From: a virus
Lineage: Duplodnaviria; Caudoviricetes
Direction: 5' to 3' (one strand)
Length of the DNA stretch: 64,000 nt
IMG/VR virus record: IMGVR_UViG_3300021387_000087
This document shows, piece after piece, positions 12,501 through 58,700 of this stretch (positions are counted from its first letter, which is position 1; the number at the start of each line of letters is the position of its first letter). The position numbers and the translations under genes are program-made. The notes under the pieces are model-generated. The model was not told the origin of the DNA and searched no databases. It saw nothing but the letters and a program-made list of their open reading frames with translations.

Positions 12501-13115
12501 ATTTAATTACCTCTTGTCAAACCATAAAACATAAGGATATGCCTCGTATGCTGGATCATCAATAGACATATCTTCACGCCATATACTTATAGGCACTATA
12601 TCTTCTCCATTATGAAATGCCCCATATCCAGTTGTTTTATTATATCTATTTGGATTACTCTTAACCATAGTTACAAAAATATGAGTACAAATAACTCGTG
12701 CAGCAGGATTTTCTGCTTCAATACGTTTGATAGATTTCATAAACGCCTCATTTAATTAAAAAAATCTAAAATGGTTTTACTACCGTCTAAATGCCAAAAA
12801 CGTATAACCATTCCATCCTCCCAATGGCTACTTGGTGAAACTGCAATCGAAGATGTGATTATACCATCTAAAAAAATATTATCACGTTCATCCATTACCA
12901 CACCATGTAATACATTTTTAACAATCAAACAATCTCCATCAGTATAAACTATATTTTTAGTCCACTCATTAGTAGTATTATTTACATTATTTGTACTCCC
13001 CCAAACATCAAAAGTGCAACAATTACTTTCTCTATGAATGTGCACATTTTCATATTGAGTTTGAAGATTATTTATAGTTTGCCTTATTTCTTCATTTGTC
13101 ATATAAACTCCTACC

Positions 13116-51413: not shown

Positions 51414-51442
51414 TTGACAATGGATTTCTAATAGTGTAATAT
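51414..51442 (+). promoter_or_regulatory. Promoter of the tRNA cluster
   Basis: TTGACA-N17-TAATAT, about 50 nt before the first tRNA. Confidence 0.65.
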
Positions 51443-51569: not shown

Positions 51570-51653
51570 GGGACGCATACAGCAAAAAGTAAATAATCTA
51601 ATCAAGAATAAAAAAGCATTATGTTTTTCAATGGCATTCCTCCTAGCGTCCTG
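51570..51653 (+). ncRNA. Stand-alone ACAGCAA-module RNA A
   Basis: GGGACGC-AT-ACAGCAA ... GCGTCCT-G. Confidence 0.7.
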
Positions 51654-51678
51654 TATAAAAGAAAATAAAATTAAATAA

Positions 51679-51799
51679 CCACCCATAGTCTAATTGGTTA
51701 AAACGCTTAGCATAACAAATCATGATTGTGATTTTTACAGCAAATTATTTGCGTTCTCCTGTCCCGAGAGAGTTGATGGTTCGAGTCCATCTGGGTGGG
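51679..51799 (+). tRNA. tRNA-Asp(GTC)-like RNA with 48-nt ACAGCAA-module insertion (51708-51755)
   Basis: Acceptor CCACCCA/TGGGTGG, D arm, CT|CTC-CTGTCCC-GAGAG, T arm GATGG-TTCGAGT-CCATC. Confidence 0.8.
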
Positions 51800-51803
51800 T
51801 TTT

Positions 51804-51862
51804 GGGACTCATACAGCATAAAACAGACTGATAATCTGCTTGCCATGAAATGGCGAGTCCTG
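51804..51862 (+). ncRNA. Stand-alone module RNA B with Ile(GAT)-like anticodon arm
   Basis: GGGACTC-AT-ACAGCAT ... CAGA-CTGATAA-TCTG ... GAGTCCT-G. Confidence 0.72.
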
Positions 51863-51869
51863 TTAATAT

Positions 51870-51990
51870 CTGTGCCTTAGTTCAGTGGTAGAACACTAAT
51901 GCAAAATGAATCATGAATGTGGTTCTCACAGCAAATATTTTGCTTCTATTGTGGATAGAGAGGTCGTAGGTTCGAGTCCTACAGGCACAG
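51870..51990 (+). tRNA. tRNA-His(GTG)-like RNA with 48-nt ACAGCAA-module insertion (51898-51945)
   Basis: CTGTGCCT/AGGCACAG, D arm GTTC/GAAC, CT|CTA-TTGTGGA-TAGAG, T arm GTAGG-TTCGAGT-CCTAC. Confidence 0.8.
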
Positions 51991-51996
51991 CTGACT

Positions 51997-52065
51997 GTGA
52001 CACTCACAGCAACAACAATATTCTACACCGTTAATCTGGGGACTGTAGAAACCCCAAGTGTCATG
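51997..52065 (+). ncRNA. Stand-alone module RNA C in the leader of the DUF2828-like gene
   Basis: GTGACAC-TC-ACAGCAA ... GTGTCAT-G directly before the RBS. Confidence 0.68.
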
Positions 52066-52085
52066 AAAGGAAAAGGTATTTTATT

Positions 52086-53594
52086 ATGAATTTTGCACAG
52101 GCGATTAAAAATGAAACAAAATGGACAAGGACTGAAAACGGAGCTGTTGCACTGAAGACAACAGATGATGCGCTGCTTGACCTCTTTGGTACAATTGGTG
52201 CTTTGAGAAATGCAGACGAAGCACGCATTACATCACTTTTTGAGGAAGCGTATAACGCAAATCCTCTGTATGCTACAAAGATTCTTTTCTACGCAAGAGA
52301 TATTCGTGGAGATGAAGAGACTCAGGGTCTTGGAGAGAGACGTGTATTCAGAATTATTCTGAAATATTGTGCACTGCATCATCCTAAGGCAATTCGTCCC
52401 AATCTTGATTTGATTGGTGCCTATGGTCGCTACGATGACCTGTATGAACTGATCGGCACTCCTCTGGAAAATGAGATGTGGACTGCTATGAAGAAGCAGT
52501 TTGAAGAAGACCTTGATAATATGTCAAAAGGGAACGCAATCTCTCTTCTGGCTAAGTGGATCAAGACTGCTGATGCTTCTTCACCTAAGACAAGGGCGCT
52601 TGGTAAGTTGACCGCACAGAAACTTGGATATGATGTATATAACTTCAAGCGTATCGTGCGTGCAATGCGTAAGCAGATTGGCATTGTTGAAGCACTGATG
52701 TCTACTGGACGTTGGGATGAGATTAAGTATTCTGAAGTTCCGTCCAGAGCAATGCTTATTTACAGAAATGCTTTTAGAAAGCATGATGAAGAGCGTTTTA
52801 ATCAGTTCGCACAGAAAGCTGTTACTGGAGAAGAGAAAATTAATTCTGGTACACTGTTTCCTTACGATATTGTAAGTAGATATGCTAGTCGTAATTGGTA
52901 TGATGGAAAATGGTATACTGGCTCTAATTTGAATGAAACAGAAGAGAATGTTCTTCAAGCACAGTGGGATCAGCTTCCTAATTATGTAGACGAAGGTACT
53001 AATGCTCTGGTCATTGCAGATACTTCTGGTTCTATGAGTGGGCGTCCAATGGATACAGCTGTTAGTTTGGCAATCTATTTTGCTCAGAGAAACCATGGAG
53101 CATTTAAAAATCTGTGGATGAATTTCAGCTCTCGTCCTTCTTATCAGCAAATTAAAGGGAAGACACTGAAGCAGATTCTTAATAATATTAATTATAGTAA
53201 TTGGGGTAATAGTACCAATTGCAAGGCTGCTTTTGAAATGATTCTAGATACGGCTATTCAGTATCATATTCCTCAGGAAGATATGCCCAAGGCATTGGTT
53301 ATTATTTCTGATATGGAATTTGATTACTGTGGTGGTGAAAATTGGACGTTCTATGATCAGATGAGGAGTGAATTCGCTAGAAATGGTTATGAGATTCCTT
53401 CTGTTATCTTTTGGGATGTCGAGAGCCGTCATGATGTATTCCACGCAGATAAGAATCGCAAGGGAGTTATCCTTGTCAGTGGTCAGAGTGCTGGAACATT
53501 TAAGAATTTGATCGGAGCAATTGGTATGAGTCCTATGGATTTCGTAATGCAGGTTGTCAACGCAAAACGATATGAACCGATTACGGTCGGATAA
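52086..53594 (+). CDS. DUF2828-like protein (TROVE/Ro60-like helical region + vWA domain)
   Basis: RTENGA, FYARDIRG..GLGERRVF, YGRYDDL, LLAKW, YSEVPSRAM; vWA MIDAS DTSGSM, ST, ISDMEFD. Confidence 0.85.
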   Translation: MNFAQAIKNETKWTRTENGAVALKTTDDALLDLFGTIGALRNADEARITSLFEEAYNANPLYATKILFYARDIRGDEETQGLGERRVFRIILKYCALHHPKAIRPNLDLIGAYGRYDDLYELIGTPLENEMWTAMKKQFEEDLDNMSKGNAISLLAKWIKTADASSPKTRALGKLTAQKLGYDVYNFKRIVRAMRKQIGIVEALMSTGRWDEIKYSEVPSRAMLIYRNAFRKHDEERFNQFAQKAVTGEEKINSGTLFPYDIVSRYASRNWYDGKWYTGSNLNETEENVLQAQWDQLPNYVDEGTNALVIADTSGSMSGRPMDTAVSLAIYFAQRNHGAFKNLWMNFSSRPSYQQIKGKTLKQILNNINYSNWGNSTNCKAAFEMILDTAIQYHIPQEDMPKALVIISDMEFDYCGGENWTFYDQMRSEFARNGYEIPSVIFWDVESRHDVFHADKNRKGVILVSGQSAGTFKNLIGAIGMSPMDFVMQVVNAKRYEPITVG

Positions 53595-53599
53595 TTCAT

Positions 53600-54290
53600 A
53601 TAGTGGATACAGACACTTAAAATCTGTATCATAAGCGCCGATGGACGCTATATATTCCATTCAATTATGCGTCATGATCGTGACGCATGCACAGCAACGC
53701 ACACAAGATTGGGGAACGTGAGTACGGGTGAAGATATTAAGATCTTTGCTTTAAGGGTGCCAGAAATGGCTTCTAAGTACAATTCAAAGGAACTGGTGCC
53801 CGCACTGGTTCGCCGTATACTCGGCTTTAATCGAGCCAAATGCTCGGTTAACAGGAAACCGGAACCTGTACAAAAAACACACACTGGGCATATAATTGGC
53901 GGCATGCACGGAACAGCCTAAGAACCGCAAGGGACATATAGTTATTCAGATTTCATTGGTTTTACTAATCAGAGTAACATTACTCAGATTTCATTGGTTT
54001 TACTAATCAGAATAGCTATATAGCGCATCACATCGAAGATCCCTAGACATGCAAGTGATGTAAACCGCAGAATGGATGATGCGGCATAAAAATGATCAAC
54101 CATCCTGTATGAGTAGGGGATAGGAAGAGTGAATCCGGCTACATACAGTGAGACCTAAAGCCCCTGATGTGAATGGGACTATGCGTGATTGTTTTCAGAC
54201 TAAAACACATCTAAAACGCTAGGCAAAACAGGCTTTGCACATCACATGTATCTAGCCTGTGTACACTTCTCTGTGATGTGCATTATTTAA
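53600..54290 (+). ncRNA. Candidate long structured ncRNA(s) with an ACAGCAA module near the 5' end
   Basis: No credible CDS; ATGCGTCAT-GATC-GTGACGCAT-GC-ACAGCAA at 53667-53697; many stems; duplicated 28-nt unit. Confidence 0.5.
53946..54011 (+). repeat. Two identical 28-nt direct repeats, period 38
   Basis: TCAGATTTCATTGGTTTTACTAATCAGA at 53946 and 53984. Confidence 0.9.
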
Positions 54291-54425
54291 AAGGTGCTAC
54301 AAAACAATTATAAATTATATGAATTTGACATTGAGAGTCTATATAATAAATAAGGTAAGAGTAGTAGTTAAATGGAGTTTGATGAACAGCCTTTTTAAAG
54401 TAATGTGATATAGAGAAGTTAATAT

Positions 54426-54516
54426 GCCACTATAAGCCTAATTGGTAAGGCAGTAGTCTTGAAAACTACCAGTAATCGTGATGAGCGATGTTCCTGTTCG
54501 AGTCGGGATAGTGGCG
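54426..54516 (+). tRNA. tRNA-Ser(TGA)
   Basis: GTAGT-CTTGAAA-ACTAC; long variable arm. Confidence 0.88.
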
Positions 54517-54611
54517 TATAATTCAGGCTTGAGTAAGAGGACTCTGTAAGTAGTTGATAGTGGAACAATAACCTGAATTAAAGAATGTATAATTAAAAGG
54601 TGGTGTGACAT

Positions 54612-55145
54612 GTGGAATATAAGAAAGAACCTGTCAAAGGATATGAAGAATATCAGGTAGACACTAATGGAATTGTTTATGGTAAAAATGGTAAGCCATT
54701 AAAATATTCGTTAAATCATAAAGGATATTGTATTATAAACTTTTCAATTAATGGTCAAGTAAAAGGATTTGCGATACATACATTAGTAGCTAAACAGTTT
54801 ATTCCTAATAACGATCCATCAAAATGGCAAGTAAATCATAAAGACGGAAATAAAGAAAATAATAATATTAGCAACCTTGAATGGGTCACTCCTGAAGAAA
54901 ACATAAAACATTCAAAAGAGGTGCTAGGAAATAATAATCTTGGTGCTAATAGTAGTCAAGCAAAACCTATAAAAGGTGTCAGTAAAAAAGATGGCACCGA
55001 AATATATTTTGATGCAATGTCAGATGGCGCACGTTTTTTAGCAAGAAAACACAATATTAAATTTATACATGCTAAATGTTCGTTGTGGCGTGCTTTAAGT
55101 GGTTGTAGAAAAAGTTATAAAGGATATTATTGGCAATATGTCTAA
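54612..55145 (+). CDS. NUMOD4-type HNH homing endonuclease
   Basis: VKGYEEYQVDTNG, HTLVAKQFI, VNHKDGNKENNNISNLEWVT. Confidence 0.9.
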   Translation: MEYKKEPVKGYEEYQVDTNGIVYGKNGKPLKYSLNHKGYCIINFSINGQVKGFAIHTLVAKQFIPNNDPSKWQVNHKDGNKENNNISNLEWVTPEENIKHSKEVLGNNNLGANSSQAKPIKGVSKKDGTEIYFDAMSDGARFLARKHNIKFIHAKCSLWRALSGCRKSYKGYYWQYV

Positions 55146-55153
55146 TAATAAAT

Positions 55154-55237
55154 GCCCCCTTGGTGGAACAGGAAGACACGCCGCATTTAAGCTGCGGTTC
55201 CGCAACAGGAGTGAGAGTTCAAATCTCTCAGGGGGTA
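55154..55237 (+). tRNA. tRNA-Leu(TAA)
   Basis: CCGCA-TTTAAGC-TGCGG; long variable arm. Confidence 0.88.
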
Positions 55238-55320
55238 TTCACAAAACAGAGATGAACGGAAAGCATGACTGTTTTGTACTGAAATATGCTCACATCTATA
55301 TGATGTATAAAACTTTCCAA

Positions 55321-55385
55321 GGGACACTTACAGCAAACTATAACAGAACAAGACTTGAAATCTTCTTTCTCTTAATAGTGTCCTG
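55321..55385 (+). ncRNA. Stand-alone module RNA E with Ser(TGA)-like anticodon arm
   Basis: GGGACAC-TT-ACAGCAA ... AAGA-CTTGAAA-TCTT ... GTGTCCT-G. Confidence 0.72.
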
Positions 55386-55396
55386 TAATTAAATAT

Positions 55397-55512
55397 GCCG
55401 ACCTTAGCTCAATGGTAGAGCACGTATGAATGGATTATGTTTGTAATCCTAACAGCAATTACTTCTTCCACTGGTAATGGCGTTGTTATTGGTTCGAATC
55501 CAATAGGTCGGC
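55397..55512 (+). tRNA. tRNA-Thr(GGT)-like RNA with 43-nt ACAGCAA-module insertion (55425-55467)
   Basis: GCCGACCT/AGGTCGGC, D arm GCTC/GAGC, CG|CCA-CTGGTAA-TGGCG, T arm ATTGG-TTCGAAT-CCAAT. Confidence 0.8.
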
Positions 55513-55517
55513 TTTCT

Positions 55518-55602
55518 GGGATTCGCACAGCAAAATAAAATGGATAAACAAAAATTCTGCAAAAATTTGAGTGAGTGGGTTCAAATCCCTAAACGAATCC
55601 TG
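55518..55602 (+). ncRNA. Stand-alone module RNA F with Cys(GCA)-like anticodon arm and T-loop remnant
   Basis: GGGATTC-GC-ACAGCAA ... AAATT-CTGCAAA-AATTT ... GGG-TTCAAAT-CCC ... GAATCCT-G. Confidence 0.72.
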
Positions 55603-56085: not shown

Positions 56086-56152
56086 GGGACGCTTACAGCA
56101 AAGTTATTTGGGAATAGACTTTTAATCTATGTAACCGAAATAAAGCGTCCTG
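56086..56152 (+). ncRNA. Stand-alone module RNA G with Lys(TTT)-like anticodon arm
   Basis: GGGACGC-TT-ACAGCAA ... ATAGA-CTTTTAA-TCTAT ... GCGTCCT-G. Confidence 0.75.
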
Positions 56153-56263: not shown

Positions 56264-56405
56264 TTTAATACAAAAATCAATGGACGCATTGGTAGATGTA
56301 TTAACGCTTATCAAAGGATATCGCTAAGGGACGAAGATTAAAAGAGTGACTGAGGGTGGAGCAGATTGATCGACTGCTAACAGGTGAAAAAGTATGATAA
56401 GTGTC

Positions 56406-56476
56406 CGCACTATGGTGTAAAGGTAGCATACTTCCGATATTAGGAAGAGGTCTGCGTTCAATTCGTAGTGGTGCAA
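56406..56476 (+). tRNA. tRNA-like gene with non-canonical anticodon loop (nominal TAT)
   Basis: Full cloverleaf, but the loop GATATTA lacks U33 and purine 37; C1-A72 mismatch. Confidence 0.6.
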
Positions 56477-56726
56477 TCTGCGCAGAAGATAGGAGACCAA
56501 ATGATACCAATGCTCTAGTTTGGTGATGTGGGGTACACGGTAAACCTTAATCCGTGATGCCATAAAGGAGAGAAAAAATGAGTATTAAAGATAAAATGGT
56601 TAATGCAAAGACAACAGATTGGCTTACAAAAGATATTTCTGATTTAGAACTTAAATGGATTTGTTGGCTTGCTCGTTTCTTTGCCACTATTGAGTTAAGT
56701 ATTAAAAAAATATTAAATAAAATAAA

Positions 56727-58403: not shown

Positions 58404-58700
58404 CTGGCATAAAGTGCCATTCTCAAAGCTGAAACGATATATGCTTTGAGCGGTTCCGCAGCAGTACCGTTAAACCTGCAAACGTGCATGTGCGGTTATG
58501 TATTATATTATCTTAATGATTTATCGGAAGGTTTGCCAGTTCGTTATGCACAGCGAATTGACAGGCTGGAAGATGCAAAACCGTGTTTCTCGCATTGCTT
58601 TTGGATTGAGGCGATGGAAGTGGTGTTGGCAACGCAAACCAACTAACAGTGTTTAGGCGTTGTGTAGAGAAGAACGTGATGTTGAGAAACATGGAATTGT

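What the first reader, a model, noticed from the sequence alone, without database searches (positions are those of the whole stretch)
51570..55602. The two module forms are circular permutations of each other
Seen: in the tRNA inserts and at 53667 the order is strand X-G-NNN-strand Y-NN-ACAGCAA (a hairpin). In stand-alone copies the order is strand Y-NN-ACAGCAA-cargo-strand X-G, so the helix is made by the 5' and 3' ends. Inference: the recognised element is topology-independent. Joining the ends of a stand-alone copy would recreate the hairpin form, so small circular RNAs or loop cleavage/ligation are possible.
Basis: partly seen in the sequence, partly recalled or inferred. Interest (0 to 1): 0.7.

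Follow-up and report, generated by a model that had tools for sequence, protein, structure and literature searches.

The report
Permuted docking handle on phage tRNA-like RNAs
A short RNA "handle" (a 7-bp helix plus the word ACAGCAA) occurs in this phage both as a closed hairpin inside three tRNAs and as an end-to-end clamp on small RNAs. It is most likely the docking site for a Ro60-like ring protein encoded among them, so the two layouts are rearranged genes for one kind of particle and need not involve RNA circles.

Summary
Ten + strand copies lie at 51.5-56.2 kb, four as closed hairpins and six as end-paired clamps. Both forms share one register: a G1.U72-type closing pair, a following G, a 7-bp helix, 2 nt, then ACAGCAA. 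Controls give 0-1 such elements, and both helices covary.

The handle is widespread. A hairpin pattern hit 86 viral contigs where about 2 were expected, and 65 of those loci carry a DUF2828 gene nearby. Six of six near-complete handle-bearing phages encode it.

I modelled the window's DUF2828 protein (pLDDT 94). Its best PDB matches are all Ro60, Rsr or phage Ro60.

The same handle flanks this gene in mycobacteriophage LeBron, Bacillus phage FADO, an E. coli Felixounavirus and Listeria P100. One LeBron copy is a weak YrlA (Y RNA) match.

So the forms are gene-level circular permutations of a Y-RNA-like tRNA mimic. "Topology-independent recognition" is supported. RNA circles or ligation are neither needed nor supported: relatives encode no splicing endonuclease, and the closest relatives encode no RtcB.

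The stand-alone form also resembles Dictyostelium Class I RNAs.

Earlier reports of this scan reached the same reading on other genomes. The pairing seems unpublished. No binding or RNA-end data exist.

The parts
51414..51442 (+). sigma-70-like promoter TTGACA-17-TAATAT ahead of the array
   Evidence: No convincing + strand terminator up to 56.4 kb, so the array is probably one polycistronic transcript (inference).
51570..51653 (+). end-paired handle copy 1 (GGGACGC AU ACAGCAA ... GCGUCC UG), 3 nt after tRNA-Gln
51679..51799 (+). tRNA-Asp(GUC) body with a 48-nt insert (51708-51755) between positions 28 and 29; closed handle at 51717-51743
   Evidence: Rfam tRNA 37.5 bits; reading of the sequence
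51804..51862 (+). end-paired copy 2 (core ACAGCAU). Cargo is an anticodon-type stem-loop CAGA-CUGAUAA-UCUG plus a hairpin that abuts strand X.
51871..51990 (+). tRNA-His(GUG) body with a 48-nt insert (51898-51945); closed handle at 51908-51934
   Evidence: Rfam tRNA 47.9 bits
51997..52065 (+). end-paired copy 3 (GUGACAC UC ACAGCAA ... GUGUCA UG), ends 20 nt before the DUF2828 start codon
52086..53594 (+). DUF2828 + DUF7788/vWA protein, 502 aa, predicted Ro60-like ring
   Evidence: Pfam. AF2 model pLDDT 94.3. Foldseek: the 12 best matches (ranks 1-13 as listed) are all Ro60, Rsr or TROVE. The MIDAS residues D312, S314 and S316 are invariant.
53666..53697 (+). closed handle with a 10-bp helix at the start of a ~0.75-kb non-coding stretch
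   Evidence: conserved in L001-L007
55321..55385 (+). end-paired copy 4; cargo AAGA-CUUGAAA-UCUU
   Evidence: Full-length weak match to Rfam RF01414, 23.8 bits.
55398..55512 (+). tRNA-Thr(GGU) body with a 43-nt insert (55425-55467). The 28/29 position is unambiguous here. Closed handle at 55432-55458.
   Evidence: Rfam tRNA 43.3 bits
55518..55602 (+). end-paired copy 5. Cargo holds a CUGCAAA stem-loop and a T-arm-like GGG-UUCAAAU-CCC.
56086..56152 (+). end-paired copy 6; cargo AUAGA-CUUUUAA-UCUAU inside a UUUGG/CCGAA helix
   Evidence: Covariation in A3. RF01414 17.8 bits.

Best explanation
The element is a docking handle on small phage RNAs. It consists of a 7-bp helix whose far end is a G.U (elsewhere A-U or U-A) pair followed by a G, then 2 nt, then single-stranded ACAGCAA. 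Its most likely reader is the Ro60-like DUF2828/vWA protein encoded among the copies. That would make these RNAs relatives of Y RNAs, especially the tRNA-like YrlA.

The protein would read one face of the helix plus the ACAGCAA strand. It therefore would not matter whether the far end is a loop or the 5' and 3' termini.

The variable part displays tRNA pieces: whole tRNA bodies, anticodon-type stem-loops or T arms.

The cyclic order is the same in both layouts: D arm, then X, then (closure), then Y-ACAGCAA, then (anticodon arm or variable region), then T arm, then acceptor. YrlA-type genes are opened at the handle and closed at the acceptor. The three tRNAs in this window are opened at the acceptor and closed at the handle. 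The permutation is therefore at the gene level, and the inserts are most likely retained arms and not introns.

Shown: the anatomy, the covariation, the genomic linkage and the predicted protein fold. Inferred: binding, retention of the insert, and biological role. The role may be tethering or decoying tRNA-directed host enzymes or defences.
For: Shared register and covariation in both forms.

Linkage to the DUF2828 gene:
- A hairpin pattern found 86 IMG/VR loci where about 2 were expected, nearly all inside tRNAs.
- The DUF2828 gene lies inside 65 of those 86 loci, typically about 1 kb downstream on the same strand.
- PF11443 is present in 16 of 22 handle-bearing contigs, in 6 of 6 that are at least 90% complete, and in 0 of 4 control contigs.
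- Five of five Lachnospiraceae MAG contigs with the gene carry handles just upstream of it.
- The same handle lies beside the gene, at 31-39% protein identity, in cultured phages LeBron, FADO, humlepung and P100.

Protein: the model's best matches are all Ro60, Rsr or phage Ro60. The LeBron homologue is annotated as a Ro-like RNA-binding protein.

Link to Y RNAs: one LeBron handle RNA matches Rfam YrlA over the full model, E 1.7e-7.

Against an intron reading: about 11 of 66 hairpin-form tRNA-like genes have no anticodon arm, with the T arm following ACAGCAA directly (L017:1262-1355).
Against: There are no binding data.

The published Ro60-binding motifs (GNCGAAN0-1G, GGUCCGA) are absent from the modules. 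Rfam YrlA does not match anything in the window.

The three tRNAs here keep perfect anticodon arms. The orthologous Thr copy changes GGU to UGU, a synonymous change, which fits a decoding role and hence possible splicing.

Distant DUF2828 clades, including giant-virus MAGs, showed no ACAGCAA modules in the flanks examined.

The loci for the linkage counts were collected with either the handle or the protein, so the sampling is not neutral.
Confidence: 0.6

Rival explanations
1. The inserts are true tRNA introns at position 28/29. The handle is the recognition element of an unknown splicing pathway, perhaps the Ro60-like protein with a host or phage ligase. The stand-alone copies are related processing units.
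For: Complete cloverleaves with canonical 7-nt anticodon loops. The insert position is the same in all three tRNAs. The Thr orthologues show a synonymous anticodon change, GGU to UGU. RtcB is present in 4 of 11 related phages and lies next to the gene in Listeria P100.
Against: No tRNA-splicing endonuclease in 0 of 11 related contigs. No RtcB in the close relatives G028 and G029. No Rfam intron or ribozyme match. I saw no bulge-helix-bulge when reading the junctions, though I ran no formal search. The same handle sits on RNAs with nothing to splice, and on tRNA-like bodies that lack an anticodon arm. The His orthologue in L007 has anticodon GGG on the same body.
Confidence: 0.15
2. The two forms interconvert as RNA. 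Either end-paired copies are ligated into small circles, or the handle hairpin loop is cut to give two-piece RNAs, as in permuted tRNA or tmRNA genes.
For: The handle is an exact permutation. RNase P opens the closed acceptor loop of M. smegmatis YrlA (PMC4201824). L007:8510-8625 and its L056 relative carry a closed acceptor-like hairpin with U-CCA in the loop and compensatory changes.
Against: Joining the mapped helix ends would give a 1-nt loop. Ligase genes are patchy. Hairpin loops vary from 4 to 16 nt. No feature requires a circle.
Confidence: 0.07
3. The handle is a processing or stability signal of the tRNA array, such as an RNase P/Z/E site or a small ribozyme, and the link to DUF2828 is only positional.
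For: End-paired copies start 3-6 nt after tRNA 3' ends. They look like acceptor stems: U or A at -1, G+1, 7 bp. Copy 2 gives a 12-bp stacked minihelix. Theta ribozymes set a precedent for RNA elements that follow phage tRNAs (PMC10879173).
Against: No match to any ribozyme family. The closed form inside tRNAs has no ends to process. Handle and gene travel together across phages of four bacterial phyla, and in LeBron the three handle RNAs follow the gene with no annotated or Rfam-detected tRNA in the stretch examined.
Confidence: 0.08
4. It is a DNA-level mobile element, a miniature inverted-repeat insertion that has hit tRNA genes.
For: Short inverted repeats flank variable cargo, and short direct repeats occur at some insert borders.
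Against: The invariant U.G wobble would be a C.A mismatch on the other strand. All copies lie on one strand. Compensatory changes keep the RNA helix. ACAGCAA lies at a fixed distance.
Confidence: 0.03

Closest known systems
YrlA/YrlB Y RNAs with Ro60 (Rsr), including mycobacteriophage YrlA (Rfam RF02553; Chen et al. 2014, PMC4201824) and Yrl1/Yrl2 of Thermus phage phiLo (PMC12135203)
   Same: Small RNAs encoded beside a Ro60-fold ring protein. A stem is made by the 5' and 3' ends, with a conserved motif on its 5' side. The body mimics tRNA. The tRNA layout is circularly permuted. In LeBron, one ACAGCAA-handle RNA gives a full-length weak YrlA match.
   Different: The motif is ACAGCAA, not GNCGAAN0-1G or CGAA. 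No YrlA match in the window. The protein matches Pfam DUF2828 and not TROVE. There are up to ten RNAs per locus. The closed-handle form set into otherwise complete tRNAs at position 28/29 is not in those papers.
Class I RNAs of dictyostelid amoebae (Rfam RF01414; Kjellin et al. 2021, PMC7919456)
   Same: Size of about 42-65 nt. A 5' G, a short stem joining the ends, CUU-ACAGCAA right after the 5' strand, variable middle, and a 3' end of CUG(U). End-paired copies give full-length matches.
   Different: Scores of 18-27 bits are below the 41.5-bit cut-off. The Dictyostelium RNAs are eukaryotic, reported as unique to Dictyostelia, and bound by the RRM protein Rnp1A. No link to a DUF2828 protein is known there, and I could not test one.
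Permuted tRNA genes (red alga Cyanidioschyzon; from my own knowledge) and permuted two-piece tmRNA genes (Rfam RF04321)
   Same: tRNA-shaped RNAs whose genes are circular permutations, with acceptor ends closed by a loop that is later opened.
   Different: Those need a splicing endonuclease plus a ligase (tRNA), or loop excision (tmRNA), to make a working molecule. No endonuclease is found here, and the permuted part is a protein handle.
Theta (minimal HDV-like) ribozymes after gut-phage tRNAs (PMC10879173)
   Same: Small structured RNA that starts directly after phage tRNA 3' ends.
   Different: No HDV-like nested pseudoknot can be drawn, there is no Rfam match, and the handle also occurs inside tRNAs.

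Membership tests
Y RNA / YrlA (RF02553) | Encoded next to a Ro60-type protein gene | tested here: met
   All ten copies lie within 2.6 kb of the Ro60-fold DUF2828 gene. Linkage seen in 65 of 86 loci.
Y RNA / YrlA (RF02553) | Match to the family covariance model | tested here: not met
   No YrlA match at E up to 10 in 50.5-60 kb. Only a sub-threshold match in phage LeBron, 39.8 bits against a cut-off of 69.
Y RNA / YrlA (RF02553) | Ro60-binding motif GNCGAAN0-1G or GGUCCGA on the 5' strand of the terminal stem | tested here: not met
   The only matches lie inside the coding region; the modules carry ACAGCAA instead.
Y RNA / YrlA (RF02553) | tRNA-like domain (T arm, D arm, acceptor-like stem) | tested here: met
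   Three copies sit in full tRNA bodies. Copy 5 has a T-arm-like hairpin. Relatives have permuted tRNA-like cargo.
Y RNA / YrlA (RF02553) | Bound by the Ro60 protein | not testable with these tools
   Needs pull-down or gel shift.
Ro60 / TROVE protein | HEAT-repeat ring plus vWA domain with a MIDAS site | tested here: met
   AF2 pLDDT 94.3. Foldseek best matches all Ro60 or Rsr, TM 0.33-0.58 (0.5-0.58 for most), probability 1.00. DxSxS invariant.
Ro60 / TROVE protein | Sequence match to the Pfam TROVE family or to solved Ro60 chains | tested here: not met
   Pfam gives DUF2828, DUF7788 and VWA_2 only. phmmer against PDB finds no Ro60.
Dictyostelium Class I RNA (RF01414) | 5' G, 6-bp terminal stem, 11-nt motix CCUUACAGCAA next to the 5' strand, 3' end CUGU | tested here: met
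   Alignment to the model consensus. Five of six end-paired copies end in CCUGU. Features as described in PMC7919456.
Dictyostelium Class I RNA (RF01414) | Score at or above the family cut-off (41.5 bits) | tested here: not met
   23.8 and 17.8 bits in the window; up to 26.8 in relatives.
tRNA intron (archaeal/eukaryal type) | Splicing endonuclease available | tested here: not met
   PF01974 in 0 of 11 related phage contigs. Five MAG contigs that carry the gene and handles are titled Lachnospiraceae, so the hosts are probably bacteria, though these could be binned phage contigs.
tRNA intron (archaeal/eukaryal type) | Bulge-helix-bulge at the two junctions | tested here: inconclusive
   None seen when reading the three junctions or in the MFE folds. 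No dedicated search was run.
tRNA intron (bacterial group I) | Group I core in the anticodon loop, over 200 nt | tested here: not met
   Inserts are 43-48 nt and lie in the anticodon stem. No Rfam intron match.
Small self-cleaving ribozymes (HDV-like/theta, hammerhead, twister, hatchet, pistol) | Match to a family model | tested here: not met
   None at E up to 10.

The most novel reading that the evidence does not exclude
The handle-bearing tRNAs are working tRNAs whose use is gated by the Ro60-like ring. Either they are escorted and shielded from host anticodon nucleases, or the handle is removed or re-joined in a Ro-like/RtcB pathway. That would be a virus-encoded tRNA maturation route in bacteria using permuted genes and possibly circular intermediates. 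The same handle on Dictyostelium Class I RNAs would then point to a shared, unrecognised RNP from phages to amoebae.
Probability: 0.08. Interest if true: 0.85.

Novelty: new variant of a known kind. Interest (0 to 1): 0.6.

Why it matters
Ro60 and its Y RNAs are a classic RNA-surveillance particle, and bacterial Y RNAs are already known to mimic tRNA. If the binding is confirmed, three things follow.

First, a very large phage branch of this system uses a different, simple handle. I found over 6,000 protein clusters and 705 cultured phage records with the protein.

Second, one phage can carry ten partner RNAs.

Third, the handle can be written into otherwise complete tRNAs. That form is the inside-out version of YrlA and I did not find it described.

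This gives a clear binding model to test: helix end plus ACAGCAA, with closure irrelevant. Cultured systems are available for the end-paired form (B. subtilis phage FADO, E. coli Felixounaviruses, Listeria P100, mycobacteriophage LeBron).

A preprint reports that the homologous Bas63 gp130 counters a host defence (10.1101/2024.10.10.617714), so the RNAs may be part of a counter-defence device.

The likeness to Dictyostelium Class I RNAs, whose function has been open since 2004, suggests a protein partner to look for there.

Tried and rejected
- HDV-like/theta ribozyme: the end-paired copies follow tRNAs, but no P2, P3 or P1.1 can be drawn after strand X, and Rfam finds nothing.
- Hammerhead, twister, hatchet and pistol ribozymes: no Rfam matches.
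- A pseudoknot of ACAG with the 3' CUGU: sterically impossible in the end-paired form, because no linker is left.
- A local GCAA/UUGC hairpin after the core forms in Asp and His but not in Thr or most relatives, so it is not conserved.
- K-turn, C/D box and H/ACA readings: the motifs are absent.
- MITE reading: rejected on the strand-specific G.U pairs.
- ARAGORN intron mode misplaces the inserts in the anticodon loop and gives wrong anticodons. I reassigned them by hand.
- Search for more copies of the L007:8510 permuted body found only ordinary tRNAs.
- The search for related loci with the 77-sequence alignment failed because it had no conserved word.
That clade showed no modules.
- Avesson et al. 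2011, which lists the Class I RNA-binding proteins, is not held.
- No whole genome is held for this window.


Full report
WHAT IS THERE

Window 51.4-59 kb is a + strand tRNA array behind a consensus-like promoter, TTGACA-17-TAATAT, at 51414-51442. Within 51.5-56.2 kb, ten copies of one short element lie on the + strand.

Four copies are closed hairpins, X-UG-NNN-G-Y-NN-ACAGCAA, at 51717, 51908, 53666 and 55432. Six are end-paired, G-Y-NN-ACAGCA(A/T)-cargo-X-UG, at 51570, 51804, 51997, 55321, 55518 and 56086.

Three hairpins sit in 43-48-nt inserts of otherwise complete tRNAs: Asp GUC, His GUG and Thr GGU. Rfam tRNA scores are 37-48 bits with one large insertion. In the Thr gene the insert can only lie between positions 28 and 29 of the anticodon stem, and the other two fit the same site. 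The fourth hairpin follows the stop codon of a DUF2828/vWA gene (52086-53594).

THE PERMUTATION IS EXACT

In both forms the helix ends in a G.U pair, which I number G1.U72 by analogy with an acceptor stem. The strand-X side is followed by a G. The helix is 7 bp, two more nucleotides follow, and ACAGCAA begins at nucleotide 10. The copy at 53666 is the exception, with a helix 2 bp longer.

In the hairpins, the G after X is the first loop base, and the loop is usually G plus UUU, UUA or UUC.

Over 0.94 Mb of related loci, a strict rule finds 35 unique hairpins and 86 unique end-paired copies, 74 of them with U72-G73. Reversed sequence or scrambled cores give 0-1.

The hairpin helix is 94.4% paired with compensatory changes at 6 of 7 pairs. 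The end-paired helix plus an inner anticodon-like stem is 98% paired with 8 compensatory pairs. No shuffle out of 500 reaches either value. The invariant U.G pair and the single orientation show the element works as RNA.

CARGO

In four of the six end-paired copies, ACAGCAA is followed after 4-23 nt by a stem with a 7-nt CU-NNN-AA loop (CUGAUAA, CUUGAAA, CUGCAAA, CUUUUAA). Copy 5 also has a T-arm-like hairpin. Across relatives, 34 of 97 end-paired copies have such a loop, against 5% at random positions. In the inserts, the real anticodon arm follows the handle after 9-12 nt. The handle therefore carries tRNA parts in both layouts.

DISTRIBUTION AND PARTNER

A pattern taken from the hairpin form hit 86 IMG/VR loci where about 2 were expected. 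Apart from five loci (four clear coding false positives and one unclear), the matches lie inside tRNA-like genes.

A homologue of the window's DUF2828 protein lies inside 65 of these 86 loci, typically about 1 kb downstream on the same strand. PF11443 is present in 6 of 6 handle-bearing contigs that are at least 90% complete, and in 0 of 4 false-positive control contigs. Five Lachnospiraceae MAG contigs with the gene all carry handles just upstream of it.

The protein family is very large, with 6,424 cluster representatives. I modelled the window's protein with AlphaFold2 (pLDDT 94.3, pTM 0.93). Its 12 best Foldseek matches in the PDB are all Ro60, Rsr or the Ro60 of Thermus phage phiLo. The MIDAS residues are invariant. 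Sequence methods alone do not show the relationship.

The protein has homologues in 705 cultured phage records, annotated as "Ro-like RNA binding protein" in mycobacteriophages. In every cultured phage I opened, end-paired ACAGCAA handles lie beside the gene:
- mycobacteriophage LeBron, three copies after gp53
- Bacillus phage FADO, at least five in the tRNA array upstream
- E. coli Felixounavirus humlepung, three
- Listeria P100, three

In these phages the closing pair is A-U or U-A, and the following G is kept. The middle LeBron copy has T-arm, closed-acceptor and D-arm cargo, and matches Rfam YrlA over the full model (39.8 bits, E 1.7e-7, below the cut-off of 69).

Mycobacteriophage YrlA RNAs were reported by Chen et al. 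2014 (PMC4201824). I did not find ACAGCAA named in any paper I could search.

HOW THE TWO LAYOUTS RELATE

In the YrlA-type genes of LeBron, FADO and humlepung, the order is Y-ACAGCAA, variable stem, T arm, acceptor closed by a loop, D arm, X.

In this window's three tRNAs, the order is acceptor 5' strand, D arm, 27-28, X, loop, Y-ACAGCAA, anticodon arm, variable loop, T arm, acceptor 3' strand.

Read around a circle, these are the same order. One layout is opened at the handle and the other at the acceptor.

Intermediates exist. L017:1262-1355 is a tRNA-like gene whose anticodon arm is replaced entirely by the closed handle, with a 16-nt loop. About 11 of 66 hairpin-form genes are of this kind.

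There is also a third layout. In window copy 5 and in L007:8510-8625, the handle takes the place of the acceptor stem. The L007 copy has an extra closed hairpin with U-CCA in its loop and compensatory changes against its L056 relative.

I saw the closed form only in the gut and rumen (Lachnospiraceae-linked) phages, not in the four cultured-phage loci.

CIRCLES, CLEAVAGE, SPLICING

Nothing requires an RNA circle.
- Joining the helix ends would leave a 1-nt loop.
- No tRNA-splicing endonuclease is found in 11 related contigs.
- RtcB is present in 4 of 11 contigs and absent from the near-complete close relatives of this window.
- PF09414 ligases are present in 2 of 11.

The RtcB link where present (the 60-80-kb gut phages, and P100 gp160) matches the known rsr-yrlBA-rtcBA association and is not specific to circularisation.

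[quoted passage not shown] That concerns the cargo, not the handle.

I read the inserts as retained arms, for two reasons. The same handle sits on RNAs with nothing to splice, and it sits on tRNA-like bodies that lack an anticodon arm. Against this reading, the three tRNAs here keep perfect anticodon arms, and the Thr orthologues switch between the synonymous anticodons GGU and UGU. In contrast, the His body carries GGG in L007. Splicing is not excluded; I give it 0.15.

OTHER KNOWN THINGS

The end-paired copies give full-length but sub-threshold matches to Rfam RF01414, the Dictyostelium Class I RNA. The model consensus is G-stem, CUU-ACAGCAA, variable region, stem, UG.

Kjellin et al. 2021 describe these RNAs as follows (PMC7919456): 42-65 nt, a 6-bp terminal stem, an 11-nt motif beside the 5' strand, a conserved CUGU end, unknown function, and unique to Dictyostelia. 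Five of the six end-paired copies here also end in CCUGU. I could not test whether dictyostelids have a DUF2828 protein.

A preprint reports that the homologous Bas63 gp130 is Ro60-like and counters the ppl defence. Its authors guess that neighbouring tRNAs are Y RNAs (10.1101/2024.10.10.617714).

VERDICT

The circular-RNA idea is unsupported.

The element is most likely the docking handle of a phage Ro60-like particle, so this is a new variant of a known kind. The closed-handle tRNAs are its least expected form.

Earlier reports of this scan on other genomes reached the same reading. I re-derived each step here. Binding, RNA ends and the fate of the inserts remain untested.

Noticed in passing
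window 53698-54420: About 0.7 kb with no convincing ORF follows the closed handle at 53666. It holds two near-identical ~30-nt direct repeats (CAGATTTCATTGGTTTTACTAATCAGA, near 53950 and 53985) and several long stems. No Rfam match. The start of the stretch is conserved in L001-L007 and the rest varies.
   Followed up: partly
window 54612-55145: HNH_3 homing-type endonuclease ORF with a GTG start sits inside the tRNA array, between tRNA-Ser and tRNA-Leu.
   Followed up: partly
L150:1959-2510 (Listeria phage P100): ROOL RNA match just below the cut-off (86 bits against 99.1, E 4.7e-16), about 1 kb upstream of the Ro-like gene and its three handle RNAs. RtcB (gp160) lies 1.3 kb downstream.
   Followed up: no
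L007:8510-8625 and L056 (- strand, 12991-13107): End-paired handle RNA whose cargo is a tRNA-like body (D arm, tetraloop arm, T arm) plus a closed acceptor-like hairpin with U-CCA in its loop. The two copies differ by compensatory changes. No further copies were found in IMG/VR.
   Followed up: partly
L017:1262-1355: tRNA-like gene with acceptor, D arm and T arm but no anticodon arm. A closed handle with a 16-nt loop plus ACAGCAA stands in its place.
   Followed up: partly
L002:8177-8264 (same in L003): 88-nt tRNA-like gene in which a handle-type hairpin with a 5-nt loop sits at the anticodon-arm position. It is followed by UCUGCAA, not ACAGCAA.
   Followed up: no
window 55322-55385, 56087-56152; L017:1709-1767; L149:5384-5437; L150:3154-3209: Repeated full-length weak matches of end-paired copies to Rfam Dictyostelium Class I RNA, whose consensus carries the same stem, CUU-ACAGCAA and 3' CUG.
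   Followed up: partly
window 56300-56560 and 58405-58700: Other G+C-richer non-coding stretches lie between tRNAs in the same array and carry no ACAGCAA handle. I did not examine them.
   Followed up: no
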